DNA of 64,000 bases. It comes from Oceanispirochaeta sp. (lineage in GTDB: Bacteria; Spirochaetota; Spirochaetia; DSM-2461). Of the stretch, positions 5,314-48,793 are shown piece after piece (the stretch's first letter is position 1; every line of letters starts with the position of its first letter). The stretch covers positions 608,001 through 672,000 of the forward strand of contig CAXXXD010000003.1 in NCBI GenBank assembly GCA_963663385.2. Reading direction: 5' to 3'. The translations under genes and the position numbers were made by a program. Under the pieces are notes generated by a model. That model did no database searches, was not told the DNA's origin, and saw only the letters and a list, made by a program, of their open reading frames with translations.

Positions 5314-5321
5314 CTGGTTTT

Positions 5322-33392: not shown

Positions 33393-33412
33393 TCCTGACT
33401 GTTTGTTATCTG

Positions 33413-33439
33413 AAACCCGGCATCAGCCGGGTTTTTTTT
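33413..33439 (+). terminator. Rho-independent terminator of rpsD
   Basis: AAACCCGGC-ATCA-GCCGGGTTT followed by a T run. Confidence 0.85.
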
Positions 33440-33695: not shown

Positions 33696-33709
33696 TTAGT
33701 CTTGCCTAA
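33696..33709. promoter_or_regulatory. TTAG-N6-CTAA palindrome, candidate metal-repressor (DtxR/IdeR-type) box upstream of hutW
   Basis: TTAGTCTTGCCTAA; related boxes at 33745, 43051, 43070 and 45016. Confidence 0.55.
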
Positions 33710-33816
33710 AATAATTATTTTAGCAATAATATATTTGGAAAAACTTAGGTAAATCCAGATTAACTATAAATAATAAAAAAGAATCATTTCGATTCTGCTT
33801 GTAGGAGAATCAAATA

Positions 33817-35373
33817 ATGACTGTAGAAGAAATGGACTATAAAGGCAAATGGGAAAGGTCTGCTGAAGATATGATGAATAGAATGCCTTCTTTTATGAAA
33901 GAGACAGTCAAAAAAAAGGTTGAGCAGGAAGCCCTGAGAAGGGGTATGGCAAGGATTACCAGTGATTTATTAAATGATATTAAATCAAGTATGATGAGAG
34001 GGTCTCCCCGACATTCGGAGAGGGAAGAGAGGGGCATCAGTGATTTCTATGCTTTGACTGACAAAGAACCCATCTTGGCCGGATTCAAAAAGAGGAGTAA
34101 AACTCCCCATGCCGGTATGGGGAGTATGGCACCTGTAGAGGACAGTTCCCGGATCTGGGACGATTTTTCCAGGCAGATTGACAGCGAGAAAGTCAGGGCT
34201 CTCTATATCCATATCCCCTTCTGCCTGGCTCGCTGTAAGTTCTGCGGCTTCTATCACTCGAAGACGAATAAAGAAGCAATCTCCGCCTATGTGGACGAAC
34301 TCCTCCGTGAAATGGATATGGTAGCGGATTCAACTTATGCCTCATCGACCCCATTCAATGCGGTCTATTTCGGCGGAGGGACGCCCACGGATATAGCTGC
34401 GGCAGATCTCAAACGGATCATGACCCATCTCCAAAGCCGCTGGAATCTGGCCAACGACTGCGAAATAACACTGGAAGGCCGTCTACACGGCTTTGACGAC
34501 GACAAGATGGCGGTGTGCCTTGACCAGGGAGTAAACAGATTCTCCTTCGGAATACAGTCCTTCAATACCCGGATACGCCGTTCGATGGGGCGTATTGAAA
34601 AGAAGGAATTCCTTCTCAAACGCCTTGATGAGATACTGAAAACCAATGGGGCCAATGTGTCCATCGACCTTATCTACGGTTTTCCCGAACAGAGTAATGA
34701 GATCTGGCTCGACGACCTGAAGTCTGCTGTGGAAAGCGGTGTAGACTCAGCCAGTATCTATCGTCTGAAACCTATGCCCGATTCTCCCATTCAGGAACTG
34801 GTGAAGCAGGGCAGACTCGCTCCTCCTGCCTCTATGGATGTTCAGGCCGAGCAGTTCGGCCTCTCCAACGATTTTTTCCGTTCTATGAATGCCCGTCGTG
34901 CCGGTGTGACCCACTGGGCTTTCACCAACCGGGAGCGCTGTGTGTACAACTCCATATCGGCCTACGGAGGTTCCATCCTGCCCGTGGGCTGCGGCGCCGG
35001 GGGAAATTTAGGAAAGTACAGCGTGATGCAGAGGATGAGCCTTAAAGAATATTCCGGCTATATAGAAAAAGGGCTAAAGCCCCTGGGTTCTATGATTGCC
35101 GAAAAGAAACAGAACCGGGCCCTTACCATGCTCAACGGAGAGCTTCACCTGAATCTGGGGATCAACCTTATTGAACACTCCCGAAGAACGGGCGAAGTGG
35201 GATTGAATGAAACCTTCGCCCCTCTTCTCGAACAGTGGGATGAGGCGGGGATGGTTTCATACAACAGGGAAATCGGTCTTGTGCGGCTGACTGATGCGGG
35301 TGTATTTCATGCGCCTCAAATCCAGCAGAACTTACTTGATTATTATGAATGGAAGAAAGGAGGAGAGGAGTGA
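33817..35373 (+). CDS. hutW: Anaerobic haem-degrading class C radical SAM methyltransferase (HutW/ChuW) with an N-terminal PCP_red-like domain
   Basis: LYIHIPFCLARCKFC (CxxxCxxC), YFGGGTPT, LANDCEITLEGR, RFSFGIQSF, HW...RER..YN; haem-gene context. Confidence 0.85.
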   Translation: MTVEEMDYKGKWERSAEDMMNRMPSFMKETVKKKVEQEALRRGMARITSDLLNDIKSSMMRGSPRHSEREERGISDFYALTDKEPILAGFKKRSKTPHAGMGSMAPVEDSSRIWDDFSRQIDSEKVRALYIHIPFCLARCKFCGFYHSKTNKEAISAYVDELLREMDMVADSTYASSTPFNAVYFGGGTPTDIAAADLKRIMTHLQSRWNLANDCEITLEGRLHGFDDDKMAVCLDQGVNRFSFGIQSFNTRIRRSMGRIEKKEFLLKRLDEILKTNGANVSIDLIYGFPEQSNEIWLDDLKSAVESGVDSASIYRLKPMPDSPIQELVKQGRLAPPASMDVQAEQFGLSNDFFRSMNARRAGVTHWAFTNRERCVYNSISAYGGSILPVGCGAGGNLGKYSVMQRMSLKEYSGYIEKGLKPLGSMIAEKKQNRALTMLNGELHLNLGINLIEHSRRTGEVGLNETFAPLLEQWDEAGMVSYNREIGLVRLTDAGVFHAPQIQQNLLDYYEWKKGGEE

Positions 35374-35921
35374 AGGAGAAAATTAAGGAATTCCTTTACT
35401 GGGAGAACATTGACCTGATATCAGTGGGGACCTTTGCGGCCCTGATAAGAGTCTCCACCTATCTTATCTCCATTTGCGGCGGGGGGATGAATCCCCTGGC
35501 TTTCATCCTTAAGAATATCATCGGAATAAGCCTCATTGTTGTATTGTGTCATAAGGTAACCCGCTTCGGAGTCCTGACCCTGTATTCCGCCGTCACCTAT
35601 CTGTTTTCCATGATCATATCGGGCAGCTTTACCCTTTCAATGCCTGTTGTTCTGATCTTCGCCCTGTTGTCGGATACACTGATGTACTTCGGAGGACGAA
35701 AGAAACGGCTGGGGGCGGTTCTTTTTTCGGTTATCTTCTATGAAATCGGGACAAAGCTATTCGGACTGGCCTACTCGTTCCTGTTCGTCAGGGAGGATAT
35801 AAGGCTTTTAATCATGCCGACTATCGTGGTTGTTATTGGACTTATCGGATCTTTTATAGGCCTTTACAGTGGAGCCAAATTGCTGAAGGAGCTGCGTCAT
35901 GCCGGGATTATTCGGAAGTAA
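35370..35921 (+). CDS. ECF transporter substrate-specific S component (MptD/Trep_Strep-like)
   Basis: About 6 TMs, ends KELRHAGII; GTG overlaps the hutW stop codon. Confidence 0.75.
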   Translation: MKEKIKEFLYWENIDLISVGTFAALIRVSTYLISICGGGMNPLAFILKNIIGISLIVVLCHKVTRFGVLTLYSAVTYLFSMIISGSFTLSMPVVLIFALLSDTLMYFGGRKKRLGAVLFSVIFYEIGTKLFGLAYSFLFVREDIRLLIMPTIVVVIGLIGSFIGLYSGAKLLKELRHAGIIRK

Positions 35922-36747
35922 ATTTCACAGATCGGAAGACTCATTCGCCATCAGACTGAGCGGTTGGACCAAGCTGGGCATGTGTACAGCCGTATCCGTG
36001 GTAACCCTATTCCTTAAGCATGAGCCGGCCCTTATGATTCTCCTGGCAGCGGGAGCGGTTTTCGCCTTTTCTCAACTGAAGCTGCGGGTCATCCTTTTTC
36101 TTTATCTTGCCATTGGAGTCATGTCGGCCCTCTCTGTGGGCTTTGCCTCCCTGCTGGGGCGGCTTGCTTCAAATATCCACCCCGCTTTTACCGGATATAA
36201 CGCCTTCGTTATGCTCCTCCCCTTTATGCGTGTTATCGCAGTAATGCAGGTCCTGGTGGTAACGGCCCTCTCCACCAGCCCCCAGGAGATCCTTACTAAT
36301 CTTAAAAGCATCAGACTGCCCCGCTTCCTCTACCTCCCCGTTCTGGTGATGCTCCGCTTCGTTCCCTCCTTTATCAACGATATGAAGCAGATCAATGAGA
36401 GCCTGAAAGTACGGGGTCTGCGGGTCAATCTGTTGACGTTGATAACCCGTCCCGGTCTCACCATCCGCTGCAGTGTCATTCCCCTAATCTTCAGAGCCTT
36501 CAGGTCGTCAGATGAGTTGGCCGTTGCCTCCGAATTGAAAGGGGTCGGTTATTTAAAGAAGACCACCTCCTTCAGGCCCAACAGAATGGGCCGGATCGAC
36601 GTTGTTATGATCCTTGTCTCAGTCCTCCTTCTCACTTCGTCTCTTTACCTTCAGTCTCTGGCCCCTCCCGAAGAATCGATGATGCACGGAAGAATGGGAT
36701 ACAACACGGAAGTGAAGATCAGCCCCTCTCCGGGACAGGATGTTTAA
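35899..36747 (+). CDS. ECF transporter T component
   Basis: LRFVPSF...ESLKVRG and ASELKG coupling-helix motifs. Confidence 0.88.
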   Translation: MPGLFGSKFHRSEDSFAIRLSGWTKLGMCTAVSVVTLFLKHEPALMILLAAGAVFAFSQLKLRVILFLYLAIGVMSALSVGFASLLGRLASNIHPAFTGYNAFVMLLPFMRVIAVMQVLVVTALSTSPQEILTNLKSIRLPRFLYLPVLVMLRFVPSFINDMKQINESLKVRGLRVNLLTLITRPGLTIRCSVIPLIFRAFRSSDELAVASELKGVGYLKKTTSFRPNRMGRIDVVMILVSVLLLTSSLYLQSLAPPEESMMHGRMGYNTEVKISPSPGQDV

Positions 36748-36749
36748 CA

Positions 36750-38180
36750 ATGGTAAAACTACGGAATATATCCTACAGCTATCCCCATAGCGATAAGAAT
36801 GTACTCTCCGGTTTGGATTATCACATCTCTCCGGGGGATGTGGTACTTGTCACCGGGGCAAGCGGCTGCGGGAAGTCTACCTTCATGCGCTGTCTCAACG
36901 GTCTTGTTCCCCACTTCTTCCAGGGAGAGCTGCAGGGAGAGGTGTTCATCGACGGAACGGATAGCCGGGATGAGAACATACCGGAGATTGCCTGCAAGGT
37001 GGGCTCCCTCTTTCAAGACCCTGAGCAGCAGTTCTTCACCCTGGATGTGGAAAGCGAGATTGCCTTTGGCCATGAGCAAAGGGGTGTGGAAGCGGAAAGG
37101 ATCAACTCTATCATTACCCGGATGGCCGAACGTCTGGGCATCTCCCATATTTTAAAATCCTCCCTCTTTACCCTTTCCGAGGGGGAGAAACAGAAGACGG
37201 CCCTGGCCTCGACTCTCTCCATGAAGCCGAAGGCAATCCTGCTGGATGAGCCGACGGCCAATCTGGACCACGAATCGACACTGAATCTGGCCGGGTTTGT
37301 AAGGGATTTAAAGGAAGAAGGGATCACTGTCATCATCGTGGACCACCGCCTCTACTGGCTCGACGGGATTGTTGATGCGACCCTGATCATGAAAGAGGGC
37401 CGGATCGTCAGGCAGTGCGCTTTTAAAGAACTTTATAATAAGGAGCTGAGAAAAGAGTTTGGATTGAGATCACCGGATATCAAAGGACTGAACAGGCATA
37501 TCGAAGGGATTCCCTCTACGGAGGCATGGACGGGAGACGCCGTAACCGTTTCGGGTCTGACATTCGGCTACAAGGGCAAGGACCTGCTTTTCGAGAATGA
37601 TAATTTCCGCTTCCCCATGGGTAAGGTCAGTTCCATCATCGGGCATAACGGATGCGGAAAAACCACTCTGGCCCGGCTTATGACTGGTTTAAGTAAGTTA
37701 AAAACAGGGGATATCTGTGTTGCCTCCGAGAGTCTCAGTACGAAACAACTGTGTAAACGGGCGGGACTGGTTTTTCAGAACTCGGATCATCAGCTGTTTA
37801 TGAGTACCGTTCTGGAAGAGATGGAAACAGCCGGCATGAAAATTAGAAAAAGAGAACGCAGGAAGAAGGCCGTAGATCTGCTGACCCACTTCAATCTGAA
37901 GGATTCCCTCCATGCTCATCCCCAGTCCCTTTCGGGAGGGCAGAAGCAGCGTCTGGTCATCGCCTGTGCTCTGATGAAGGAGCCGGACATCCTGATTCTT
38001 GACGAGCCCACCAGCGGATTGGACGGAAAGAACATGTCTGTCATAGCCCACACCCTTGAGAAGATAGGAAAAGAGGGGAGCTGCGTCATTCTCATCACAC
38101 ACGACCTTGAGCTTATCGCAAGTGCAAGTGACTATATATTGAATCTGGGAGATGTCCGCAAGGGAACTCCCGCTAAATAA
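36750..38180 (+). CDS. ECF transporter fused dual ATPase
   Basis: Two Walker A motifs (GASGCGKS, GHNGCGKT), FQDPEQQFF, two LDEPT. Confidence 0.92.
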   Translation: MVKLRNISYSYPHSDKNVLSGLDYHISPGDVVLVTGASGCGKSTFMRCLNGLVPHFFQGELQGEVFIDGTDSRDENIPEIACKVGSLFQDPEQQFFTLDVESEIAFGHEQRGVEAERINSIITRMAERLGISHILKSSLFTLSEGEKQKTALASTLSMKPKAILLDEPTANLDHESTLNLAGFVRDLKEEGITVIIVDHRLYWLDGIVDATLIMKEGRIVRQCAFKELYNKELRKEFGLRSPDIKGLNRHIEGIPSTEAWTGDAVTVSGLTFGYKGKDLLFENDNFRFPMGKVSSIIGHNGCGKTTLARLMTGLSKLKTGDICVASESLSTKQLCKRAGLVFQNSDHQLFMSTVLEEMETAGMKIRKRERRKKAVDLLTHFNLKDSLHAHPQSLSGGQKQRLVIACALMKEPDILILDEPTSGLDGKNMSVIAHTLEKIGKEGSCVILITHDLELIASASDYILNLGDVRKGTPAK

Positions 38181-38191
38181 GGATGTTAAAA

Positions 38192-39208
38192 ATGAAGATT
38201 GCCGTTATCTACTCCTCTAAAACCGGAAATACAAAGAAAGTGGCCCGGGCTATAAAAGATGCCCTGCCCGAGACCACAGATCTGATCGAAGCCAAAGATT
38301 TCAAGGGGGGCCATGATTACGATTTCATCTTTATGGGCTACTGGGTTGATAAGGGTACTGCCGATCGGGAAGCTCAGAAGGTGATGTCTCAGATCACCAA
38401 TAAGGAGGTGGCTATCTTCGCCACTCTGGGAGCCTATCCTGAGTCTGATCATGCCAGACAGAGCCTTGTGGGTGCCGCCTGCTGCTTCGGAAAGAACACG
38501 AAGGTTGTGGCCAGCTATATCTGTCAGGGAGCGATCGATCCGAAGATCATTGAAATGATGCGGAAAAACTCAGTCATACCCCATGGAAACTCGGAAGAGA
38601 GTGAAAAGCGCTGGGCCAACGGGGCAAGCCGCCCCGATGAGAACGATCTGAAAAAGGCAGCTGAGTTCGCCGTTAAAGCGATGGAAATGAGGGAGATTTT
38701 TGCTCCCTATAAAGAGAAGATAAAGACTGCCATGAAAGAGGCACTCGCTCAGGATCCGGGAATGCCGGCCATGGCGGCAATGAAATTTGGTGTGAGTGAG
38801 AAGGAAGTTTATGAGAACCTGCCGGAAGGAACGGTGAAATTTGTTGATATATCCAATTTTAAGGAAATCTGGGAAGAGATGGCGAGCTGGGAGAAGGTGC
38901 AATTCTTAAGCGTAAACTCAGGGCTGGTTATGGAAGTCCCGGGCAGACTTTCCCGGGGAAAGGAGGGACACGGCATGTTCAATCTGTCCGACAGGGATGC
39001 CCCCGTTCACGGTCATGTGATAGTCGACAATCTGGATTCCCTGGCCTTCGTATCCATACCTTTTATGGGTCGGGAGAGCCATAACGTGACCTTCTTTGCC
39101 AAGGACGGCAGCGTCGCTTTCGCTCTTTATCTGGGACGCAATGAAAAACGGGAAATCATTCCCGAAGTTAGAGAGTCCTTTCTGAAGCTTAAAGAATCTT
39201 TCTCATAG
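38192..39208 (+). CDS. Fusion of HmuF-like flavodoxin (N) and HutX/ChuX haem-binding domain (C)
   Basis: YSSKTGNT FMN loop, GYWVDKG, FATLGAYP, cap His; C-terminal GMFNL...HGH...PFMG...LYLGR ChuX motifs. Start 38192 fits the AAGGA SD. Confidence 0.82.
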   Translation: MKIAVIYSSKTGNTKKVARAIKDALPETTDLIEAKDFKGGHDYDFIFMGYWVDKGTADREAQKVMSQITNKEVAIFATLGAYPESDHARQSLVGAACCFGKNTKVVASYICQGAIDPKIIEMMRKNSVIPHGNSEESEKRWANGASRPDENDLKKAAEFAVKAMEMREIFAPYKEKIKTAMKEALAQDPGMPAMAAMKFGVSEKEVYENLPEGTVKFVDISNFKEIWEEMASWEKVQFLSVNSGLVMEVPGRLSRGKEGHGMFNLSDRDAPVHGHVIVDNLDSLAFVSIPFMGRESHNVTFFAKDGSVAFALYLGRNEKREIIPEVRESFLKLKESFS

Positions 39209-39394
39209 CACTCTTGTGCCCCCCTGTCCCGAAGAGGACGGGCCGCACCAGAAGTTAAATTGTGTATCTGTCTTTATAAAATTTCTTCTCATTCTCAGAA
39301 AATTATCCCGCAGTGCAACAAGTCGTAGTTTACAGGAGTCGGAAAACGAGGAGCTGCTGCTAAAAAAGCAGATACGACTTTAACTCTTTTTTTA

Positions 39395-40282
39395 TCAGCT
39401 CCTTCCTGTCTGGGTCATATTGTCCGGCACAACAATAATAAAATCGGCGATCTGCTCTCTCTCTTCGGTTGTCATCATATCCCATTCACTTTCCATTAAA
39501 GTAGTGATTGATTTGATGTTTATCCCGGGTTGTATTTCATTGATCCACCACATAATCCCCTGGCGATTGTTGCTGTGGTAGGAACCTGAAAAATGTAAAA
39601 GCAGGTTTCCAGGTTGATAGTTTTTCAGGGAGAAATAGGCCATTGTCGCATCCTTGGCAGCCTGAGCGGCCTGGAGATTTTTAATCTTAGGATTTGCATG
39701 GCCTCCCATAATAGAAGCCATATCGGCATAACACTTCACCTCATGATCAAAACGGGTTTTGAAATCCGGGCTGATCATGGTTAAAGCCTCAGGACTCAAA
39801 TGATCAAGAACTTCAATACCTCCTTTATTGATCATGGAGGCGTATCTGCGTGGTATATTGGTGGCAATGAAGCGGAGGCCCTTTTCCCTGGCGAAATCAA
39901 GAAGCGGTTTATAATCCGTTTTATAGTTTCCCCATAGCTGAGTTATTTCAGGAAGCATTTTATCTTCCTCATAGAATCCTTCTAAATATTCATTCAGCAC
40001 CAACTGGTTTCCGCTTTCAAACATTTCTGCTCCAAAAAACAGATCATCTCTTCTGATTTCGTATAGACTGTGACTCAACTCCTGCTGAAGCCAGTGGGAT
40101 ATCGGGTTGGTGTGGTACTCTCCAAAGAAGATCATATCCGATCGGGAAATATTGCTGATCATTTCTTCATATTTGATAGGCTTTCCTTCATTGGAATAGA
40201 GACGCCAGGCCGGCTTATCCTGGGCTATCGCCGATCCTGATATGCTGATCATCAGCAGTGATATAAGTTTTATGTTATTCAT
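39395..40282 (-). CDS. ChaN/PhuW-family haem-associated protein (SPase I-type signal)
   Basis: FFGEYH, EMFE, DYKPL, ATNIPR, DATMA and GSYHS motifs. Confidence 0.85.
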   Translation of the reverse strand: MNNIKLISLLMISISGSAIAQDKPAWRLYSNEGKPIKYEEMISNISRSDMIFFGEYHTNPISHWLQQELSHSLYEIRRDDLFFGAEMFESGNQLVLNEYLEGFYEEDKMLPEITQLWGNYKTDYKPLLDFAREKGLRFIATNIPRRYASMINKGGIEVLDHLSPEALTMISPDFKTRFDHEVKCYADMASIMGGHANPKIKNLQAAQAAKDATMAYFSLKNYQPGNLLLHFSGSYHSNNRQGIMWWINEIQPGINIKSITTLMESEWDMMTTEEREQIADFIIVVPDNMTQTGRS

Positions 40283-40447: not shown

Positions 40448-40891
40448 CTACATTTCTACCTGAGAAAATTCTACTATGTTACCCATAATAGTAAACTCCA
40501 TAGTAACGCCATCCTCAAGGATGGTGAATACTTTGTCGGATGCTGATTCAGCAGTCATTCCCATATCTGGACAGTAGGCTTTGAAGGAAAAAATAATCTT
40601 ACCATCTTCTTCTGTAGTGGTAACATCCGTCGTATAGATATATGCCATTTCTCCCATCCCCCCGGACGACACATAGGAATCTTCCTTCAGTTCATAGTTG
40701 AGTGTGCTTACCTCACCCTGAATTGTTGCATTACCTGTCCATTGAACACCCATCATGTCGTCATATTCGGAAATCGTTTTAGGAAAATCATCATCACCGG
40801 AAGAGGAAGAACCATCATCGCAGGAAACGAACACCAGGGATGCAAAAACTACCAACACTACCAGAAAACTGCTGAAAAAACCTTTCTTCAT
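40448..40891 (-). CDS. Acidic Met-rich lipoprotein of unknown family
   Basis: Lipobox FVSC, Ser/Asp tether, beta-strand-rich; directly downstream of the TonB-dependent receptor. Confidence 0.75.
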   Translation of the reverse strand: MKKGFFSSFLVVLVVFASLVFVSCDDGSSSSGDDDFPKTISEYDDMMGVQWTGNATIQGEVSTLNYELKEDSYVSSGGMGEMAYIYTTDVTTTEEDGKIIFSFKAYCPDMGMTAESASDKVFTILEDGVTMEFTIMGNIVEFSQVEM

Positions 40892-40911: not shown

Positions 40912-42903
40912 TTAATATTCTATGCGGCCGCCGATCGTTCCGATGACGCCGTCATAATAACCAAAGTAATCTTCCTGATTCATACCTTCATAACTACTGC
41001 CCTCTCCTTCTAAGAAGTGATAGTTATTCAGGAGGTTTTCGCCGCGGATATATACGGAAAAATGCTCTCCAATACCTTTTTCAGTTCCCAGAACCAAGAG
41101 CAATTTATCGGGAGATTTAACATCTCCTGAACTCGTCAGCTTCATGGGAGCGTCCCAGGTCGTCGAGCCGAAGACTTTTAATGCTATCTTTGAGAACCTG
41201 TAGCTGGAGCTTAAACACACTGTATGAGGGACTCGGCCAGTCAAGTCTGTGTATTCACCATCCTCATAACTCTTGGCGGCTGTATAGGCGTATGAGAGGG
41301 AACCGGAATAATCGTTATGGTTGTAGTGAATGGCAGTATCTCCACCATAGGTCACGGCCTTTCCGATATTTTCGTAGCTGGTGTCCACATAGCCCCCGCT
41401 GCCGTCGGAATTGGAAGGGGTTTCGATAAGATCGATTATATAGTTGTAATAGGCTGCGGCTGAAAAGCTGAATCGCTCCAGGAATTCCTGTTCCAGCGAA
41501 ATATTGAAACCATGGGATTTCTCCGGTTTCAAATCGGGATTCCCATAGATATTAAAAACCGCAGACCCGCCGCCGGTATGGTGAAAAAACCAGTACTTTT
41601 GCTTTAAAGTGGGAATCTTATACCCCATCCCATAGGAGACACGAATTGTCGTATCTTCCGTTGGATCCGCCTTCAGGCTCAGCTTGGGCGTAAACTGGGA
41701 TAGCCCCGATTCTTCATCTCCGATGGGAGGAGTAAAATCAAAACGGAAACCGGGGGTCAGGAGAAAGAGATCCCGGGAGCCTATATTCCAGTCGTCCTGT
41801 GCGAACAGGCTGAGATGAAGCGCTTTTTTCCACTCCTCTTTTCCGAAGGACACCTCGTCTTGTAGAGCTTCGAGTTCAATGTGGGTCCCCGCAAGCAGGG
41901 TATGGGAAATATGAGGAATCATTTCAATACGATATTCCCCCTCGAAACCGGCATACTTCCTCTCGGACGATGACGATCCGCTTTCCAGATTCAGGCCGAA
42001 ATAGTTACCCGAAAGAAAGCCGCTGCCGGATAACCGGTCGGTGATCTCATGGTCTCCTCTGAAACCGCCGTAGATGCGGGGATTATCATATGTAGATTCT
42101 GAGGAGGGAATTCCTGCCGATGAAAGGGAGTTGTATTTACTGATGTACTGGTCATAGTTTGCGAAAATGCCCCACGTTCCCTGATCATTAAAGAAATCGG
42201 CTGTCAGCCCCAGTGAACTCAAGAAAGAAGAGGGAAGCTCGTAATACTCCTCCTCTTTCCGTCCTCGATTATAGGACTTTTTCTTTCCGTTATCATAATC
42301 CAGGGACGCTGTGGTACCTATGCTGTATCCTTCCGTTGTATAACTGAGCGCACCTGTTGTGTATGTTCTGAGATTCGTGGAGATCTCAGAGTTTGCATTA
42401 GCGCTGAATTCAGGCGTTGAGGGCTTTTCCTTTTTTGTAATGATATTAATGACACCACCGATCGCATCAGAACCGTAAAGAGCGGAGCTTGAGCCTCTGA
42501 TGATTTCGATTCTCTCTATATTGGAAACGGGGATCTGTCCTGTAGGGAGTGAACCGGCTATATCTCCAACCAGTTTCACACCGTCAACCAGGAATCTGAT
42601 GTATTCTCCTTCAAATCCCTGCATCATGATGGAACTCGACATCCGTCCGCCCACAGAAATACCTGGGATCTGCTCCAGGGCCTCGGAGAGATTCGTTGCC
42701 CCAGACTCCCGGATTTCTTCTGCTGTCACAACTTCGACTTTTTCACTTGCCTCATCTGATGTTTCAGCAAACTTGCTCCCAGTTATAACAATTACGGCCT
42801 CTCCGTCCGGAGCGGTCCTATCCTGAGCATAAAGAAAAAAAGAACCAGAAAAGAGTATTGTTGCGATAATCATGCCGTTCTTGATCGTTTGAGCTGTCCT
42901 CAT
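40912..42903 (-). CDS. TonB-dependent receptor, haem/HmuR-like
   Basis: TonB box VIVITGS, plug IERIEIIRGSSSALYGSDAIGGVINIITK, FRAP/NPNL-like YKIP...HH...NPDLKPE, C-terminal aromatic residue. Confidence 0.9.
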   Translation of the reverse strand: MRTAQTIKNGMIIATILFSGSFFLYAQDRTAPDGEAVIVITGSKFAETSDEASEKVEVVTAEEIRESGATNLSEALEQIPGISVGGRMSSSIMMQGFEGEYIRFLVDGVKLVGDIAGSLPTGQIPVSNIERIEIIRGSSSALYGSDAIGGVINIITKKEKPSTPEFSANANSEISTNLRTYTTGALSYTTEGYSIGTTASLDYDNGKKKSYNRGRKEEEYYELPSSFLSSLGLTADFFNDQGTWGIFANYDQYISKYNSLSSAGIPSSESTYDNPRIYGGFRGDHEITDRLSGSGFLSGNYFGLNLESGSSSSERKYAGFEGEYRIEMIPHISHTLLAGTHIELEALQDEVSFGKEEWKKALHLSLFAQDDWNIGSRDLFLLTPGFRFDFTPPIGDEESGLSQFTPKLSLKADPTEDTTIRVSYGMGYKIPTLKQKYWFFHHTGGGSAVFNIYGNPDLKPEKSHGFNISLEQEFLERFSFSAAAYYNYIIDLIETPSNSDGSGGYVDTSYENIGKAVTYGGDTAIHYNHNDYSGSLSYAYTAAKSYEDGEYTDLTGRVPHTVCLSSSYRFSKIALKVFGSTTWDAPMKLTSSGDVKSPDKLLLVLGTEKGIGEHFSVYIRGENLLNNYHFLEGEGSSYEGMNQEDYFGYYDGVIGTIGGRIEY

Positions 42904-43050
42904 TTTTTTCCTCAATTATTAGTCCAATATATAGAATTATGTATATATTCATTCCGAGGTTTAAACACTGCCAGGGATGGTTGCCTGTCAATAAGCCCGG
43001 TTTGGACTCAATGAGAAAGGGTTCCAATAATTCCCTTGCTGAATGAAAAA

Positions 43051-43237: not shown

Positions 43238-43951
43238 TCAATCAAGGCTGTATTCCAGGTAAAAAGTCAGTTCGAATTCGCTTTTCCCATCGGGTAATCC
43301 GGGAAAAGGAGCCGCTCTTTCAACAGTTTTCACGGCAGCTTCGTTTAAAAGAGAGTAGCCCGAATGCTCCATTATGAGACAGGAAGTCAACTCTCCGTCG
43401 GCTGAAATGACCAGGTGAAGTTTAATAAGACCTTCCTGACCTTTCCTGCGGGCACTCGAGGGGTAGATCTTTTTTCGTGCGATACGTGTGAGAACCTTGG
43501 TTTGATAGCGGACAATGGCGGGGCTTAACTCTTTTACAATGGGGCGGGGCGGTTGTGTATCTATAGGGGACTGAATGTTATTCAGCTGTGTAAACTCCGG
43601 CCCGGGAAGTGGCTCCGGCCCGGGAAGTGGCTCCGGCCCGGGAAGTGGCTCCGGCCCGGGAAGTGGCTCCGGCCCGGGAAGTGGCTCCGGCCCGGGAAGT
43701 GGCTCCGGCCCGGAAAGTGGCTCCGGCCCGGAAAGTGGCTCCGGCCCGGAAAGTGGCTCCGGTCCGGAAAGTGGCTCCGGCCCGGAAAGTGGCTCCGGCT
43801 CAGATACAGTCTGAGAGAAGGACATGGCCTTCAGAGCAACTTCTATCACGGTATCCTGGGCCATTTCCTCTGTCTTTATCGGGGGAGGGAGAAGGAACAG
43901 TGTCATAAAAAGGGAAGCGGAGAACAGGACGCTAAGAATCCATCTGATCAT
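43238..43951 (-). CDS. tonB: Energy transducer TonB
   Basis: N-terminal TM, Pro-rich repeat, YPSSARRKGQEG...SGYSLLNEAA...PFP C-domain. Confidence 0.9.
   Translation of the reverse strand: MIRWILSVLFSASLFMTLFLLPPPIKTEEMAQDTVIEVALKAMSFSQTVSEPEPLSGPEPLSGPEPLSGPEPLSGPEPLSGPEPLPGPEPLPGPEPLPGPEPLPGPEPLPGPEPLPGPEFTQLNNIQSPIDTQPPRPIVKELSPAIVRYQTKVLTRIARKKIYPSSARRKGQEGLIKLHLVISADGELTSCLIMEHSGYSLLNEAAVKTVERAAPFPGLPDGKSEFELTFYLEYSLD
43595..43798. repeat. 18-bp tandem repeat, 11 copies, encoding (PEPL[S/P]G)n in TonB
   Basis: CTCCGGCCCGGGAAGTGG x6, then CTCCGGCCCGGAAAGTGG-type x5. Confidence 0.97.
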
Positions 43952-44339
43952 GACGAATCCCTATTTTCTCTATGCCGGATTTTTTCACCTCATCAAGGAT
44001 CTGAACCACCGTCTCAAAGACAATGTCTCGGTCACAGGCGAGAACCAGAGCCACCTCCGGATTTTTCTTCTTAAGTTTGTAAAGACTGGATTCCAGTTCT
44101 TCCCTTACTATGATCTGCCCGTCCAGGCTGATGACTTCCTCCCTGGATACAGTGAGGGTAACGGCTTTGTTCTCCTCCTTTTCCTCTCCTGAGGAACGGG
44201 GCAAATCGAGGGGAAGGGAATTCTGTCTGAACTGGGTGGAGATCATGAAAAAGATCAGTAATATGAAAATGACATCGATAAGAGGAGTCACATTCATTCC
44301 AGCTTGTTTCTTTTTCTTCCCTTGACCCATGTTAAGCAT
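43932..44339 (-). CDS. exbD: Biopolymer transporter ExbD
   Basis: NVTPLIDVIFILLIFFM. Confidence 0.93.
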   Translation of the reverse strand: MLNMGQGKKKKQAGMNVTPLIDVIFILLIFFMISTQFRQNSLPLDLPRSSGEEKEENKAVTLTVSREEVISLDGQIIVREELESSLYKLKKKNPEVALVLACDRDIVFETVVQILDEVKKSGIEKIGIRHDQMDS

Positions 44340-44919
44340 GGTTTTTCCTTTTTACCGGATAATCAAGTTCATCCTCATCTTCACAAGCGGGAACAGCCAT
44401 TCCCATATGGAGTAACCTTACCTCCTGCTTCCTGCGAAAGTAATGGACGAAGAAAAGGGAAGGAAGGGCTACGATCAATCCGAATGCCGTTGTAAGCATG
44501 GCTTCCCAGATTCCCCCTGAAAAATTCTGGATATCCAGGGAGGTCGCTCCTGCCATCCCTTGAAAACTCTTTATCAGACCGAAAACAGTCCCCAGAAGAC
44601 CCAGAGACGGAGATGCGGCGCTAATGAATTCCAGCAGCCACAATCCCCTTTCCATTTCATGATTCAGCAGGGCGCCGAATCTTTCCAATTCTTCATTCTT
44701 GTGATCTTGAGGAAAGTCTTTCAGTTCCAGATAGCGGTTGAACAGCCTCTGTATCTGGGATCGACATGGCGTATGGCTTCCCGCAAGGGAGTCGAGTTTA
44801 CGGTAGGTTATCAGAAAATAGAGACTCCTCTCTATTATCAGGGTCATACTTAGAAAGAGCATGCCTGTGAGGATCCATCCTATCAATCCTCCCAGGCGGA
44901 TGTATTCTATTAATTCCAT
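44332..44919 (-). CDS. exbB: ExbB/TolQ/MotA proton channel
   Basis: SPSLGLLGTVFGLI...GIWEAMLTTAFGL. Confidence 0.92.
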   Translation of the reverse strand: MELIEYIRLGGLIGWILTGMLFLSMTLIIERSLYFLITYRKLDSLAGSHTPCRSQIQRLFNRYLELKDFPQDHKNEELERFGALLNHEMERGLWLLEFISAASPSLGLLGTVFGLIKSFQGMAGATSLDIQNFSGGIWEAMLTTAFGLIVALPSLFFVHYFRRKQEVRLLHMGMAVPACEDEDELDYPVKRKNHA

Positions 44920-45620: not shown

Positions 45621-48600
45621 TCACTCCGCCAGAAAAACGGTCTGCTGCCTATCCACAACAGAATACTCTGTCTCCTGAGCCGCTTCCATGAGGAGTTCCC
45701 TGTCCGACATAAACTCCCGGGGCTGTTTCCGGACCGGCATCATGGCCAGAACCACAGGCAGAACCGCCAGGGTCAGAAAGGTTCCGAAAATCAGTCCCCA
45801 GGCAATGGAGATTCCTACGGGAACCATCATCTGTCCTCCCACGCTCTTTTGGAATATAAGGGGCGCCAGACCGATGGAGGTTGTCAGTGTCGTCATCAGA
45901 ATGGGTCTGAACCTCTGAAGGGCCGCTTCTCTGGCTGCCAGTTTTTTGGGAATCCCAGAACGGATCTTTTTATTGAAACAGTCGATCAGAACCACCGAGT
46001 CATTAACAATGATACCGCCCAGGGCAACGCTTCCCAGAAAGGAGATGAAGGAAATGGGTTTTCCCATAATCATATGGCCGTATACAGCACCCAGAAAGCC
46101 CAGGGGGATCAGGGTTAATACAAGCAGAGCCTGACCCCATGATTTCATCTGAAACAGCAGCAGAGTAAACATGATCAGCAGGGCCAGGGCCATGCTGAAG
46201 ACCATGGACTTAATCATTTTATTGACCCATTCCGCCTGGCCGCCCTGGGAAAGGGTAACCCCTTCAACTCTGGAAAGGATATCGGGCAGGATCCTGTCGT
46301 TCACCTCTTTCATAACAATATTTATCTCTGTTACTCCCGTATCCACTCCTGCCATTACACGCAGGGAACGGTAGCCGTTCTCCCGGCGGATACTCCTCTG
46401 GCTTCTCTGCAGGGAGAAGTCTGCTACCTCCCGGAAAGGAACCAGACTGCCGGCGGGCGTGTGGATCATCATATCTTCCACACGGCTGAGGGAGTCCCTT
46501 TCTTCCTGGGAGAACCGGATTATAACAGGTATGGTATTTCTTCCGTCCTGGATGTTCATAACCTCGCTGCCGTAGAAACCCATACGCACCTGGTTGGCAA
46601 CCGATGCGGTTGTCAGCCCGAGGGCCATCCCTTTTTCGTTAAGCCGGATTATAAACTCTTTCTGTCCCAGAGGCGTATCATCCCGGATATCCTTGACACC
46701 GTTTATCCTGGCCAGCTCTTCCTTAAAGAGGTCGGCCGCTTCCTTCAGCTGTGTTTTATCCTTTCCCAGAAAGCGGATCGAAACAGGATCCCCCCCGAAC
46801 ATGGAATCGTTCCCTATAAACATTGACTCTACTTCAGGGTATTCGGGAACGGCCCTGGCTAACTCGAGGGAAAATTCGTTTACCGTAAAATCCCGAATCT
46901 CGTTATCCTGAAGGATCAGGTAGATATACATCTGGTTGCTGTTTCCCCAGGAGAGGTAGTCCACTATGGCATTATCAAAATCGGGGCTTTTCAGGGCGTA
47001 CTCCCTGCCGAATTCCATAGAGAACCGTTCCAGATCCTCCCGGGTTTCATTTATAACATCCGCGGAAGTTCCGGAAGGGAACTGGACCTGGGCATACACA
47101 TAGGGGGCTTCAATATCCGGGAAAAAGGCGGCTTTTATATGATTTCCCATAGCCGCTCCTGCGGAGATCATGATCGAACAGGCCAGAAGGGTCAGAATCA
47201 CCGCTTTATGATTCAGGGCAAAGTCCAGGAAAGGCTGATAGATTCTGTAGATCAGGAAATCCTGAGACTGCTGAAGCTTCTGTCTGAGGGGACGCGGCCT
47301 CCGTGCTTCGGCTGTAAGGGCTTTAGAGTGAGCCAGATGAACCGGCAGAAGTATCATGGCTTCCACCAGTGAGAAAGCCAGGCTGATTACCACAACCGTA
47401 CCAATCTGCGCGGTATACTTTCCCATATCTCCGTAGATAAAGAAATAGGGAGCAAAGGCAACCATTGTGGTGGCAATGGAGATCAGTACAGGAGACATGA
47501 CTTCCAGAGTTCCGTCTATGGCTGCCTGTTTCCGGGTTTTCCCCAGACGGTGCCACTGATCATAGATACTTTCTCCGATAACGATTCCGTCATCCACCAG
47601 TATACCGATGATCATAATCATTCCGAACAGGGACATCTCATTGATGGTAATTTTCATCATCCATTCCAGAAAAATCAGTCCCATAAAAGAGATGGGGATT
47701 CCCAGTGCTACCCAGAAAGAGATACGTGTATTCAGAAACAGCCCCAGAATCAGTATTACAAGGAGCAGCCCCCCGAGGCCGCTTTTGGTAAGGGTTCCCA
47801 GCCGTTCGTGCAGATCATCCACATCCCGGATATAGGTCTGGAAGGTAAAGGCATCCCCGTATTTTACCCGGTATTCCTCCAGTTTGGCATCCACGATTTT
47901 CGATATGGATATTACATCCTCCGTATTGCTGTACATTATCTGAAGGCCTATAGCTTCCTGGCCGTTTGCCCTGGTGTAGATGGCATTTTCCGCCCGGCCC
48001 ATCCTGATGGTGCTGATGTCCTTAAGGCGGATACTCCGGCCGTTCGGTGTGGTCATAATGACAATCTCTTCCAGTTCGGGGATGGTTGTCTTTTTTTCGT
48101 AGGAGCGTATCTGTATCTGTTCATCAGCGGTAAGAACGGATCCGGCAGACATATTGAGACTGGCAGACCGGATGGCGCCGTCAATATCATCCAGAGTCAG
48201 GCCGTACCGTTCCAGGGTGGAGGGGAGGGGTTCTATTATTATCTGTTCCCCCGGGAAGCCCCAGGTGTTAATCTGGGTTACCTGCCCTGTTCTGGACAGG
48301 TCCTCCCTGAATTCGGTTGCCACATCTTCCAGAAGCCGGAGATTTTCCTGACCGTAGATAAACAGAAGCATAACCCGGTTCCACTCGGTTTCCCTGTATA
48401 TAACGGGTTTATCCGCTTCCGAGGGGTATTCCGGTGTTGTTTCCACAGTGGAACGGACGTTGTCAAGGAGTTTGTCCATGGGATACCAGGGGGATGTTTC
48501 CAAACCGAACCAGGCGCCTCCGTCCCGGGCTGTGGATGTTACCTGGACAATGCCTTCCAACCCGCGCAGTCTTTCTTCAAGGGGAAGGACCAGCCCTTCC

Positions 48601-48782
48601 TCCACTTCAACGGCAGAGGCCCCGGGCCATGAGAGTTCAATGGAGATGTAATCAAATTCGATTTTCGGCCAGATCCGCTTCTGCAGGTTAAGCAGCCCGA
48701 AGGTACCTGCCGCAAAAATCAGAATCATAAGCCAGTTGGTTAAAAGAGAATTATCTACAAAATAGGTTAATAGCTTTTTCAT
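45621..48782 (-). CDS. RND efflux permease (AcrB/AcrD/AcrF family)
   Basis: GILVDDGIVIGE, RFRPILMTTLTT, 1053 aa. Confidence 0.95.
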   Translation of the reverse strand: MKKLLTYFVDNSLLTNWLMILIFAAGTFGLLNLQKRIWPKIEFDYISIELSWPGASAVEVEEGLVLPLEERLRGLEGIVQVTSTARDGGAWFGLETSPWYPMDKLLDNVRSTVETTPEYPSEADKPVIYRETEWNRVMLLFIYGQENLRLLEDVATEFREDLSRTGQVTQINTWGFPGEQIIIEPLPSTLERYGLTLDDIDGAIRSASLNMSAGSVLTADEQIQIRSYEKKTTIPELEEIVIMTTPNGRSIRLKDISTIRMGRAENAIYTRANGQEAIGLQIMYSNTEDVISISKIVDAKLEEYRVKYGDAFTFQTYIRDVDDLHERLGTLTKSGLGGLLLVILILGLFLNTRISFWVALGIPISFMGLIFLEWMMKITINEMSLFGMIMIIGILVDDGIVIGESIYDQWHRLGKTRKQAAIDGTLEVMSPVLISIATTMVAFAPYFFIYGDMGKYTAQIGTVVVISLAFSLVEAMILLPVHLAHSKALTAEARRPRPLRQKLQQSQDFLIYRIYQPFLDFALNHKAVILTLLACSIMISAGAAMGNHIKAAFFPDIEAPYVYAQVQFPSGTSADVINETREDLERFSMEFGREYALKSPDFDNAIVDYLSWGNSNQMYIYLILQDNEIRDFTVNEFSLELARAVPEYPEVESMFIGNDSMFGGDPVSIRFLGKDKTQLKEAADLFKEELARINGVKDIRDDTPLGQKEFIIRLNEKGMALGLTTASVANQVRMGFYGSEVMNIQDGRNTIPVIIRFSQEERDSLSRVEDMMIHTPAGSLVPFREVADFSLQRSQRSIRRENGYRSLRVMAGVDTGVTEINIVMKEVNDRILPDILSRVEGVTLSQGGQAEWVNKMIKSMVFSMALALLIMFTLLLFQMKSWGQALLVLTLIPLGFLGAVYGHMIMGKPISFISFLGSVALGGIIVNDSVVLIDCFNKKIRSGIPKKLAAREAALQRFRPILMTTLTTSIGLAPLIFQKSVGGQMMVPVGISIAWGLIFGTFLTLAVLPVVLAMMPVRKQPREFMSDRELLMEAAQETEYSVVDRQQTVFLAE

Positions 48783-48793
48783 GAGTATTCCTT

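What the first reader, a model, noticed from the sequence alone, without database searches (positions are those of the whole stretch)
38192..39208. Single polypeptide fusing an HmuF-like haem/FMN flavodoxin to a HutX/ChuX haem carrier
Seen: one stop-free ORF with an N-terminal ~170-aa flavodoxin (YSSKTGNT, GYWVDKG, TLGAYP) and a helical insert holding a His (codon 38582-38584, VIPHG), followed by a complete ChuX-like domain (HGH, PFMG, LYLGR). Established, from recall: Fusobacterium HmuF/FldH binds haem through a cap-domain His and reduces anaerobilin, and ChuX/HutX shuttles haem. Inference: the fusion could deliver haem to HutW and reduce its product, replacing ChuY, and so links two pathways normally seen as alternatives. 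The GYYNL-like segment here reads GMFNL, so haem ligation may differ.
Basis: partly seen in the sequence, partly recalled or inferred. Interest (0 to 1): 0.82.

Follow-up and report, generated by a model that had tools for sequence, protein, structure and literature searches.

The report
Flavodoxin–HutX fusion in haem-degradation operon
One real gene joins an FMN flavodoxin of the haem-binding FldH/HmuF type to a HutX haem carrier at the end of an anaerobic haem-uptake and haem-breakdown operon, a rare but recurrent and so far unstudied arrangement of two known parts.

Summary
Window 38192-39208 (+) is one stop-free 338-aa ORF. Residues 4-160 match Flavodoxin_3 (E 1e-47) and residues 182-333 match HutX above NCBIfam's equivalog cut-off.

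The AlphaFold model (pLDDT 92) matches haem-bound FldH (8G64) over 166 of 169 residues, helical cap included. Cap-less flavodoxins align over only 125-131 residues. His131 aligns with FldH's haem ligand His134.

The gene is last in an operon with HutW and an ECF importer, next to TonB-dependent haem-uptake genes. It is not an assembly artefact: contigs about 97% identical from two further studies carry it without indels.

The architecture is rare. I found 11 protein clusters, 7 in this domain order and 4 in the reverse order, and databases name them only "HutX". A congener and a Turicimonas have adjacent separate chuX and fld genes.

Best reading: a bifunctional haem chaperone plus anaerobilin reductase serving HutW. 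This is inferred, not shown.

Verdict: a new variant of a known kind, of moderate interest.

The parts
33817..35373 (+). HutW/ChuW-type radical SAM anaerobic haem-degrading methyltransferase (518 aa), first gene of the operon. It has an extra N-terminal PCP_red-like domain (residues 12-56).
   Evidence: NCBIfam TIGR04107, 427.1 bits against a cut-off of 400. Pfam Radical_SAM and PCP_red. It is the only match above the cut-off in the genome. A terminator-like hairpin after rpsD at 33412-33435 sets the operon apart.
35349..35921 (+). Putative ECF-transporter S (substrate-capture) component, Trep_Strep family. It overlaps the end of hutW.
   Evidence: Pfam PF09605, E 4.3e-07, 30.6 bits against a cut-off of 28.7. 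The same gene sits beside hutW in Desulfospira L008, Turicimonas L010 and congener G008.
35899..36747 (+). ECF T component (CbiQ family).
   Evidence: Pfam PF02361, E 7e-14.
36750..38180 (+). Fused double ECF ATPase (A1-A2).
   Evidence: Two ABC_tran stretches. ECF_ATPase_1 scores 328 bits against a cut-off of 315.
38192..39208 (+). The finding: a 338-aa flavodoxin-HutX fusion protein (P0001), last gene of the operon.
   Evidence: AlphaFold model with pLDDT 92.2 and pTM 0.86.
38192..38671 (+). N-terminal FMN flavodoxin domain of the FldH/HmuF type (residues 1-160). The phosphate loop is S8-T14. The FMN-contact equivalents are K54, T78, G80, A81 and H87.
   Evidence: PF12641, E 1e-47. 8G64 gives Z 21.9 with 166 of 169 residues aligned. 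The A3 profile against 8G64 gives E 3.6e-49. T11, G12, N13, T14 and T78 are each 68 of 68 in A3.
38531..38632 (+). Helical cap insert (about residues 114-147), equivalent to the FldH cap Lys116-His150.
   Evidence: The alignment to 8G64 runs through the cap. Cap-less flavodoxins align over only 125-131 residues. The model has helices 117-125 and 135-144.
38582..38584 (+). His131 codon (cat), equivalent to the haem-iron ligand His134 of FldH.
   Evidence: The profile alignment places the family 'PH' His on chain residue 137, which is His134. His occupies this column in 54 of 68 sequences.
38630..38632 (+). Arg147 codon, at the position of FldH His150. This is a departure from the family consensus.
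   Evidence: The column holds H in 63 of 68 and R in 4 of 68. The paper lists His150 among the conserved linker residues (PMC10404700, section 12, passage read).
38639..38752 (+). Long predicted helix (residues 150-187) that runs from the last flavodoxin helix into the HutX domain and acts as the linker.
   Evidence: DSSP on the model gives H150-187; the 10-residue blocks covering the helix have mean pLDDT 95-98 (residues 141-170) and 87-89 (residues 171-190).
38735..39190 (+). C-terminal HutX/ChuX haem-carrier domain (residues 182-333).
   Evidence: TIGR04108, 153.1 bits against a cut-off of 110. 5EXV HutX by sequence, E 2.3e-31. Z 21-22 to 2HQV, 2PH0, 2OVI, 5EXV and 6U9J.
39014..39016 (+). 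His275 codon, the second His of HGH. It aligns with His98 of E. coli ChuX.
   Evidence: Invariant in 45 of 45 ChuX-type domains.
38975..38977 (+). Met262 codon, the M of GMFNL, at the first Tyr of HutX GYYNL.
   Evidence: The column holds Y 23, F 11, M 10 and L 1 of 45.
39395..40282 (-). ChaN/Cofac_haem_bdg haem-binding uptake protein. It converges on the fusion gene.
   Evidence: PF04187, E 2e-50.
40448..40891 (-). Small protein with a signal-peptide/lipobox-like N-terminus (…FVSCDD) and no family match.
   Evidence: 0 families.
40912..42915 (-). TonB-dependent outer-membrane receptor. Its best NCBIfam hit is the haem/haemoglobin receptor subfamily, below that model's cut-off.
   Evidence: Plug and barrel domains. 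TIGR01785, E 6.6e-52, 176.9 bits against a cut-off of 316.85.
43238..44919 (-). TonB (43238-43951), ExbD (43932-44339) and ExbB (44332-44919).
   Evidence: Pfam TonB_C, ExbD and MotA_ExbB.

Best explanation
The gene encodes a bifunctional cytoplasmic partner of the anaerobic haem-degrading enzyme HutW.

Proposed route: haem is taken up by the TonB-dependent receptor and ChaN-like protein encoded on the opposite strand. The ECF-type transporter encoded between hutW and this gene brings it across the inner membrane. The C-terminal HutX domain, with its invariant His275, captures the haem and passes it to HutW. The N-terminal FMN domain has the helical cap and the His (His131) with which FldH holds a tetrapyrrole flat over the flavin. 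It takes the reactive ring-opened product, anaerobilin, and reduces it by hydride transfer from FMNH2. That is the job done by ChuY in E. coli and by HmuF in Fusobacterium.

Shown here: the domain identities, the cap and His equivalence, the operon context, and the recurrence of the pairing.

Inferred: FMN and haem binding, the direction of hand-over, and the reductase activity.
For: Domain identity and structure:
- Flavodoxin_3 and HutX hits.
- The model has pLDDT 92.2 and pTM 0.86.
- FldH (8G64) is the best flavodoxin match: Foldseek E 1.5e-12 with TMt 0.84, and Z 21.9 with 166 of 169 residues aligned. Ordinary flavodoxins reach at most Z 17.6 with 125-131 residues aligned.
- His131 aligns with His134, Pro148 with Pro151 and Asp152 with Asp155.
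- His131 is conserved in 54 of 68 sequences. FMN-loop residues are invariant.
- HutX His275 is invariant, 45 of 45.

Operon and genome context:
- HutW scores above its equivalog cut-off in the same tightly packed operon.
- This is the only HutX domain and the only HutW in the 5.3-Mb genome.

Recurrence of the pairing:
- 7 clusters carry Fld-ChuX and 4 carry ChuX-Fld.
- Separate but overlapping chuX and fld genes follow the same ECF genes in congener G008 and in Turicimonas.
- A HutW-ChuX fusion, P0039, also exists.
- A flavodoxin of this family lies beside HutW in Veillonella, Megasphaera and Desulfospira loci.

Biochemistry of the relatives:
- FldH and HmuF bind FMN and haem, pass haem to HmuW and reduce anaerobilin (PMC10404700, abstract and passages read).
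- HutX carries haem to HutW under anaerobic conditions (review PMC12670364, passage read).
Against: - Nothing biochemical is known for this protein.
- Identity to FldH is only 27%.
- FldH His150, conserved in 63 of 68 family members, is Arg147 here, and Ala147 is Gly144.
- Of the six hydrophobic residues on the proximal haem face of FldH, only Leu121 and Phe125 have hydrophobic equivalents (Ile119, Met123). Leu130, Val137 and Met140 map to Ser127, Ser134 and Ser137, and Ile133 maps to Pro130. This is my mapping.
- The propionate partner Lys92 is Gln90.
- The paper itself notes HmuF homologues that lack the His, so the His is not obligatory.
- If the cap already binds haem, a second haem-binding domain looks redundant, and the division of labour proposed here is a guess.
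- Whether a ChuY-type reductase exists elsewhere in the genome was not searched.
Confidence: 0.6

Rival explanations
1. The flavodoxin domain is the ordinary one-electron donor that reduces the [4Fe-4S] cluster of HutW. Fusion to HutX would then bring substrate and electrons to the enzyme together. The product would be reduced by HutW itself or elsewhere.
For: ChuW is reduced by the E. coli flavodoxin/flavodoxin reductase/NADPH system (PMC10114669, passages read). The flavodoxin fold and an intact FMN phosphate loop are present. HutW of V. cholerae gives an already reduced product without a separate reductase (PMC10114669 and PMC12670364, passages read).
Against: The nearest solved relative, FldH, does not stabilise the semiquinone needed for one-electron transfer. 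It cycles between the oxidised and hydroquinone states (PMC10404700, abstract). That study lists purification of a different flavodoxin, FN0724, among its methods (outline). Its use as the HmuW reductant is my inference. The cap and His131 have no role in plain electron transfer, yet they are kept.
Confidence: 0.2
2. The flavin domain acts on haem itself rather than on the product. It could be a haem-iron (ferric to ferrous) reductase or a protective haem store. Both domains would then simply buffer incoming haem.
For: FldH/HmuF bind haem tightly, and the authors stress protection from labile haem (PMC10404700, passages read). Two haem-binding modules sit in one chain, directly after an importer.
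Against: The tight and recurrent linkage is to HutW, not only to importers. The HutW-ChuX fusion P0039 points to delivery rather than storage.
Confidence: 0.12
3. The N-domain is a BilS-like electron-transfer partner for a bilin reductase of the BilR type.
For: The second NCBIfam hit is the BilS equivalog, E 5.9e-30. BilS is the flavodoxin-like gene of bilirubin-reductase operons (PMC10769871, passages read).
Against: The score of 104.3 is under the cut-off of 155. No Old-Yellow-Enzyme/BilR-like gene was seen among the window genes scanned between 24 and 54 kb. The operon partner is HutW.
Confidence: 0.05
4. The fusion is an assembly or sequencing artefact that joins two neighbouring genes.
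For: A congener and Turicimonas have the two genes separate.
Against: In those genomes the gene order is chuX then fld, the reverse of the order here, so losing a stop codon cannot produce this ORF. Contigs from runs X1 and X2 are identical over 37900-39400, although they may be the source of the assembly. Contigs from X6 and X7, from two other studies, differ by 41 and 40 substitutions and have 0 gaps over 37900-39168. P0002 (74% identity) and P0003 (62% identity), from other assemblies, are collinear over the full length.
Confidence: 0.01

Closest known systems
FldH / HmuF of Fusobacterium nucleatum (PDB 8G64; PMC10404700)
   Same: Flavodoxin_3 fold with an FMN phosphate loop. A helical cap of about 35 residues is inserted before the last helix. 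The His aligns with the haem ligand His134. Pro151 and Asp155 equivalents are kept. The gene is encoded with a HutW/HmuW-type radical SAM enzyme and haem-uptake genes.
   Different: Identity is 27%. It is fused to a HutX domain rather than standing alone at about 170 aa. His150 is Arg and Ala147 is Gly. The residues after the His are polar rather than hydrophobic. It is separated from hutW by three ECF-transporter genes. No biochemistry exists.
HutX of Vibrio cholerae (PDB 5EXV) and ChuX of E. coli O157:H7 (2OVI, 6U9J)
   Same: The score is above the HutX equivalog cut-off. Identity to 5EXV is 37-41%, with Z 21. The His of 'GH' (ChuX His98) and the Asn of FNL are invariant. It is encoded with the 'W' gene, as in the W-X-Y/Z operons (PMC10114669, passages read).
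   Different: It is the C-terminal half of a larger protein. The first Tyr of GYYNL is Met, as in 10 of 45 homologues. ChuX His65 is Val here (alignment). No HutZ or ChuY gene follows it.
ChuY anaerobilin reductase of E. coli
   Same: The proposed job is the same: reduction of the HutW/ChuW product, encoded as the last gene of the 'W' operon (PMC10114669, passages read).
   Different: There is no homology. ChuY is an NADPH-dependent enzyme, whereas this is an FMN flavodoxin domain. The likeness is functional and inferred only.
BilS, flavodoxin-like protein of bilirubin reductase operons (NCBIfam NF045594; PMC10769871)
   Same: It belongs to the same Pfam family. It is also tied to reduction of a linear tetrapyrrole.
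   Different: The score is below the BilS cut-off (104 against 155). No BilR was seen in the part of the window scanned.
LhaSTA ECF-type haem importer of Staphylococcus lugdunensis (PMC7299338)
   Same: It is the precedent for an ECF transporter (S, T and A components) importing haem. The three genes between hutW and the fusion have that S/T/A make-up.
   Different: I did not test homology of the S components. Here the ATPase is a fused double unit and the organism has an outer membrane with a TonB system.

Membership tests
HutX/ChuX cytoplasmic haem carrier (TIGR04108, PF06228) | Sequence score above the curated family cut-offs | tested here: met
   TIGR04108 scores 153.1 bits against 110. 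PF06228 scores 85.1 bits against 25.
HutX/ChuX cytoplasmic haem carrier (TIGR04108, PF06228) | ChuX fold (antiparallel sheet with peripheral helices) | tested here: met
   Z 20.9-22.2 with rmsd 1.6-2.3 over 154-170 residues to 2HQV, 2PH0, 2OVI, 5EXV and 6U9J. Foldseek TMt 0.80-0.91 across the listed ChuX/HutX chains.
HutX/ChuX cytoplasmic haem carrier (TIGR04108, PF06228) | Conserved His equivalent to E. coli ChuX His98. Its role in haem binding is recalled from Suits et al. 2009, which I did not read here. | tested here: met
   His275 is invariant in 45 of 45 domains and aligns with His98 of 2OVI.
HutX/ChuX cytoplasmic haem carrier (TIGR04108, PF06228) | Encoded with a HutW/ChuW gene | tested here: met
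   HutW (TIGR04107, 427 bits against 400) is the first gene of the same operon.
HutX/ChuX cytoplasmic haem carrier (TIGR04108, PF06228) | Binds haem 1:1 and passes it to the degrading enzyme | not testable with these tools
   Needs purified protein.
FldH/HmuF haem-binding flavodoxins (PMC10404700) | Flavodoxin core with an FMN phosphate-binding loop (FldH Ser9-Thr14) | tested here: met
   S8-S-K-T-G-N-T14. T11, G12, N13 and T14 are each 68 of 68. PF12641, E 1e-47.
FldH/HmuF haem-binding flavodoxins (PMC10404700) | Helical cap domain inserted before the last helix (FldH Lys116-His150) | tested here: met
   166 of 169 residues of 8G64 align at Z 21.9, against 125-131 residues for cap-less flavodoxins. 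The profile alignment runs through the cap without gaps, except for one missing loop residue.
FldH/HmuF haem-binding flavodoxins (PMC10404700) | Proximal haem ligand His134 | tested here: met
   His131 occupies the aligned column. His is present in 54 of 68 relatives. This is positional equivalence only. Ligation itself is untested.
FldH/HmuF haem-binding flavodoxins (PMC10404700) | Conserved linker residues Ala147, His150, Pro151 and Asp155 | tested here: inconclusive
   The equivalents are Gly144, Arg147, Pro148 and Asp152, so two of four are kept. Arg occurs at the His150 position in only 4 of 68 sequences.
FldH/HmuF haem-binding flavodoxins (PMC10404700) | Hydrophobic proximal haem face (Leu121, Phe125, Leu130, Ile133, Val137, Met140) and Lys92 salt bridge | tested here: inconclusive
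   The mapped residues are Ile119, Met123, Ser127, Pro130, Ser134 and Ser137, with Gln90 for Lys92. The family consensus is also polar after the His, so FldH may be the atypical member.
FldH/HmuF haem-binding flavodoxins (PMC10404700) | Encoded with HmuW/HutW in a haem-uptake locus | tested here: met
   It is in the same operon, three genes downstream of hutW. The haem-uptake genes converge on it.
FldH/HmuF haem-binding flavodoxins (PMC10404700) | Binds FMN and haem, forms no stable semiquinone, and reduces anaerobilin | not testable with these tools
   Needs spectroscopy, potentiometry and a HutW-coupled assay.
BilS (NCBIfam NF045594) | Score above the equivalog cut-off | tested here: not met
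   104.3 bits against a cut-off of 155.
BilS (NCBIfam NF045594) | Operon with BilR | tested here: not met
   No BilR-like gene was found among the window genes scanned from 24 to 54 kb. The rest of the genome was not searched.

The most novel reading that the evidence does not exclude
HutX-type and HmuF-type proteins may not be alternative solutions. They may be two consecutive stations of one intramolecular tetrapyrrole relay: haem goes from importer to HutX domain to HutW, and anaerobilin goes from HutW to the capped FMN site. In that case the fusions in both orders, the adjacent gene pairs and the HutW-ChuX fusion would all mark a physical HutW-HutX-flavodoxin complex.

More broadly, capped Flavodoxin_3 proteins would be a general tetrapyrrole-handling reductase module. 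They are also seen fused to CbiC and CbiK, and they include BilS.
Probability: 0.3. Interest if true: 0.6.

Novelty: new variant of a known kind. Interest (0 to 1): 0.45.

Why it matters
Anaerobic haem breakdown by HutW/ChuW makes a reactive product, and it needs haem delivered safely. Three accessory solutions have been described so far: ChuX with ChuY, HutX with a self-reducing HutW, and HmuF alone. The HmuF authors wrote that HmuF supplants ChuX/ChuS and ChuY.

A natural protein carrying both a HutX and an HmuF-like domain argues that the two functions can be complementary. So do the reverse-order fusions and the adjacent gene pairs in unrelated lineages. The fusion also offers a single-chain system in which the hand-over of haem and anaerobilin could be followed.

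The finding shows as well that database names hide the flavin half: all named examples are called only 'HutX'. It is useful for specialists in bacterial haem catabolism. It is not a new principle.

Tried and rejected
- Complex prediction of HutW with the fusion protein gave no answer. The three runs scored 0.49, 0.00 and 0.00 and no controls were run. This is no evidence either way.
- Alignment A2 put the ChuX-only sequences against the flavodoxin half (checked). I discarded it and used A3 instead.
- Independent origins of the Fld-ChuX order. The quick tree of flavodoxin domains (74 rows, none dropped) needs 3 changes for the 7 Fld-ChuX rows. The AU test does not reject a single clade (p 0.44, after unfinished runs). 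I therefore claim independence only between the two domain orders.
- RNA evidence. No RNA holder was listed for the stretch, so nothing can be said about expression.
- Fur-box-like palindrome AAAATAATTATTTT at 33708-33721. There is one match, with 0.63 expected by chance, so it is not significant and I found no second copy.
- Haem ligands of HutX and ChuX from the literature. The ChuX paper and the HutW paper are not held. A search for 'HutX' with 'Tyr90' found nothing. The ligand roles of HutX Tyr90 and ChuX His65/His98 are therefore recalled, not checked.
- Earlier findings of this scan: none.
- Print on the fusion. I searched 'anaerobilin'+'flavodoxin' (18 papers listed), 'flavodoxin'+'ChuX'+'fusion' (2 listed, both unrelated by title and abstract start), HutX/heme/HutW/flavodoxin and 'HmuF' from 2023 (only the JBC paper relevant). 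In the JBC paper 'fusion' and 'fused' occur 0 times. Its supplementary alignment (Fig. S10) was not seen and might include fused homologues.
- ChuY in the rest of the genome was not searched, because I had no family accession at hand.
Full report
**The observation**

The window holds one uninterrupted ORF from 38183/38192 to 39208 on the + strand. I place the start at ATG 38192. An AAGGA lies 8-9 nt upstream, directly after the stop of the preceding gene, and all homologues begin MK(I/C)AV. That gives 338 residues (P0001).

Pfam finds Flavodoxin_3 at residues 4-160 (E 1.1e-47) and ChuX_HutX at 196-331 (E 5e-24). NCBIfam places residues 182-333 above the HutX equivalog cut-off, at 153.1 bits against 110.

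**Not an artefact**

Contigs of two runs (X1, X2) carry the stretch 37900-39400 without any difference, though they may be the source of the assembly. Contigs of two further studies (X6, X7) cover 37900-39168 with 41 and 40 substitutions and no gap. A strain about 97% identical therefore keeps the same open frame through both domains.

Proteins P0002 (74% identity) and P0003 (62%), from other assemblies, are collinear over the whole length.

**The N-terminal half**

I folded P0001 with alignment A3, which has 68 rows: 7 fusions of the same order and 61 stand-alone flavodoxins. The model has pLDDT 92.2 and pTM 0.86.

The best flavodoxin match in the PDB is haem-bound FldH of Fusobacterium nucleatum (8G64):
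- Foldseek gives E 1.5e-12 and TMt 0.84.
- VIA-align gives Z 21.9 and rmsd 2.4, with 166 of 169 residues aligned.
- Ordinary flavodoxins reach at most Z 17.6 with only 125-131 residues aligned.

The difference is the helical cap. The paper on FldH/HmuF (PMC10404700; abstract, outline and passages read) defines this cap as Lys116-His150. It shows that the cap holds haem flat over the FMN, with His134 as the iron ligand.

A profile of A3 matches the 8G64 sequence at E 3.6e-49 over the whole chain. In that alignment the family's 'PH' histidine falls on chain residue 137, which is His134. In P0001 this is His131.
- The His131 column holds His in 54 of 68 sequences.
- Pro148 and Asp152 correspond to the conserved Pro151 and Asp155.
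- Arg147 stands where 63 of 68 relatives, and FldH, have His (His150). Gly144 stands for Ala147.
- FMN-loop residues T11, G12, N13 and T14 are invariant, as is T78. H87 corresponds to FldH His89.
- Of the hydrophobic residues that FldH lays against the haem, only the first two have hydrophobic counterparts here. The residues after the His are polar, as they are in the family consensus.

The cap and the ligand position are therefore present. The pocket is not a copy of FldH's.

**The C-terminal half**

It is a complete HutX. Identity to V. cholerae HutX (5EXV) is 37-41%, with sequence E 2.3e-31. Z is 20.9-22.2 to five solved ChuX/HutX-type structures.

I aligned 45 ChuX-type domains: 7 + 4 fusions, one HutW-ChuX fusion and 33 stand-alone proteins.
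- The second His of HGH (His275, aligned with E. coli ChuX His98) is invariant, as is the Asn of FNL.
- The position of the first Tyr of HutX GYYNL holds Y 23, F 11, M 10 and L 1.

Which residues ligate haem in HutX and ChuX I know only from memory, because the papers could not be read.

**Context**

The gene is the last of five tightly packed or overlapping + strand genes. These lie behind a terminator-like hairpin that follows rpsD.
- HutW: TIGR04107, 427 bits against a cut-off of 400, with an extra N-terminal PCP_red-like domain.
- A Trep_Strep membrane protein.
- A CbiQ-type T component.
- A double ECF ATPase.
- The fusion gene.

Converging on it from the - strand are a ChaN-type haem-binding protein, a small lipoprotein-like ORF, a TonB-dependent receptor, and TonB-ExbD-ExbB. 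An ECF transporter for haem has a precedent in LhaSTA (PMC7299338, abstract and passages read).

The genome (5.3 Mb, 4 contigs) has one HutX domain, one HutW above the cut-off and three Flavodoxin_3 matches. No ChuY-like or HutZ-like gene appears among the window genes I scanned between 24 and 54 kb. The rest of the genome was not searched for one.

**How common it is**

In the 5.8-billion-protein collection, 8 of 29 hits in the searched length range carry both domains.

In the exhaustive search of 1.84 billion representatives there were 1202 hits at E ≤ 0.001, of which 150 were listed. Five listed representatives carry both domains:
- P0001, P0005 and P0033 in the order flavodoxin-ChuX.
- P0030 and P0031 in the order ChuX-flavodoxin.

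In all I saw 11 clusters at 90% identity, 7 of one order and 4 of the other. One of them (P0008) has an odd C-terminal part. Named members come from an uncultured Desulfuromonas, a deltaproteobacterial MAG and a Mailhella MAG, and all are labelled only 'HutX'.

Among 61 related genomes, only the window's genome has the fusion. One congener (G008) has ECF-S, -T, -A, then chuX and fld as separate genes, with hutW further downstream. A Turicimonas MAG has hutW, a receptor, ECF-S, -T, -A, then chuX and fld with overlapping stop and start.

A Desulfospira MAG has exactly the window's order (hutW, S, T, A, fld) but no ChuX. Veillonella and Megasphaera loci have fld next to hutW without ChuX.

In a sample of 401 genomes of the phylum, 45 have a match at E ≤ 1e-8. 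All 44 besides the window's genome match only the flavodoxin half.

Further fusions point the same way:
- HutW-ChuX (P0039, 679 aa).
- Flavodoxin_3 with CbiC (P0109), with CbiK (P0146) and with an ABC ATPase (P0028).

The two domain orders must be separate fusion events. Within the window's order, a single origin is not rejected (AU p 0.44), although the quick tree scatters the rows.

**Mechanism**

Established for relatives:
[quoted passage not shown] They do not stabilise the semiquinone (PMC10404700).
- HutX carries haem to HutW anaerobically (PMC12670364, passage).
- ChuY reduces the ChuW product in E. coli, and V. cholerae lacks ChuY (PMC10114669, passages).

From this and the anatomy, I take the protein to be a combined haem chaperone (HutX half) and anaerobilin reductase (capped FMN half) for the operon's HutW (confidence 0.6).

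The main rival is that the flavodoxin half merely feeds electrons to the radical SAM cluster, as flavodoxin does for ChuW (confidence 0.2). The kinship to FldH and the retained cap and His speak against that but do not exclude it. Haem-iron reduction or storage (0.12), a BilS-like role (0.05; score under the cut-off) and an artefact (0.01) rank lower.

**Comparison and novelty**

Both halves pass the tests I could run for their families, with two reservations for the FldH/HmuF side: His150 is Arg, and the pocket is only partly hydrophobic.

What is new is the union. The HmuF authors describe HmuF as supplanting ChuX/ChuS and ChuY. Here, and in about ten other protein clusters and two adjacent gene pairs, an HmuF-like flavodoxin and a HutX go together.

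I found no paper that mentions such a fusion (searches; 'fusion' and 'fused' occur 0 times in the JBC paper). The supplementary alignment of that paper was not seen.

It is a new variant of a known kind: moderately interesting to specialists, readily testable, and not a new principle. I score interest at 0.45.

Noticed in passing
window 33850-33984 (HutW residues 12-56): The HutW here carries an N-terminal PCP_red-like domain (PF08369, E 1.3e-09) ahead of the 419-position HutW model, which starts at residue 89. The HutW-ChuX fusion P0039 has the same domain. tblastn matches of other HutW genes begin only at residues 70-98, so the extension may be clade-specific. It could be a docking or tetrapyrrole-binding module.
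   Followed up: partly
P0039 (679 aa): A natural fusion of a HutW-type radical SAM enzyme (with the PCP_red domain) to a C-terminal ChuX/HutX domain. This is direct architectural evidence that HutX works with HutW.
   Followed up: partly
P0109, P0146, P0028, P0036: Flavodoxin_3 domains of this clade also occur fused to CbiC (precorrin-8X methylmutase), to CbiK (cobalt chelatase) and to an ABC ATPase, and as a tandem pair. NCBIfam's nearest named relative is BilS of bilirubin-reductase operons. The family seems tied to tetrapyrrole chemistry in general.
   Followed up: no
window 43238-43951 (-), TonB: The TonB has a long run of GPEPL(S/P) repeats, about 11 units, in its periplasmic spacer (translation). 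The same DNA gives long repetitive ORFs in other frames.
   Followed up: no
window 33708-33721: A perfect 14-bp AT palindrome, AAAATAATTATTTT, lies about 100 bp upstream of hutW and overlaps promoter-like hexamers. It is Fur-box-like in composition. There is a single copy, with 0.63 expected by chance.
   Followed up: partly
L028 (G008:C2:183000-201000), minus strand: In the congener the cassette is preceded by a TetR/CecR-type regulator (L028 12301-13020). hutW (4976-6589) lies downstream of chuX-fld, with an unassigned 474-aa ORF (6330-7751, no Pfam hit) in between.
   Followed up: no
L001, L009 (Megasphaera): These loci show TonB-dependent receptor, ChaN, ABC ATPase, flavodoxin and HutW in a row. 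The same receptor-ChaN pairing as in the window therefore recurs in Firmicutes with an outer membrane.
   Followed up: no
window 39168-39208: The ~97%-identical contigs of runs X6 and X7 stop aligning at 39168, 40 nt before the stop codon. The last 13 or so residues and the downstream region may differ in that strain.
   Followed up: no
window 45621-49993 (-): An AcrB-type RND pump (1053 aa) and a HlyD-type adaptor lie next to the haem locus, beyond exbB. No link to haem was examined.
   Followed up: no
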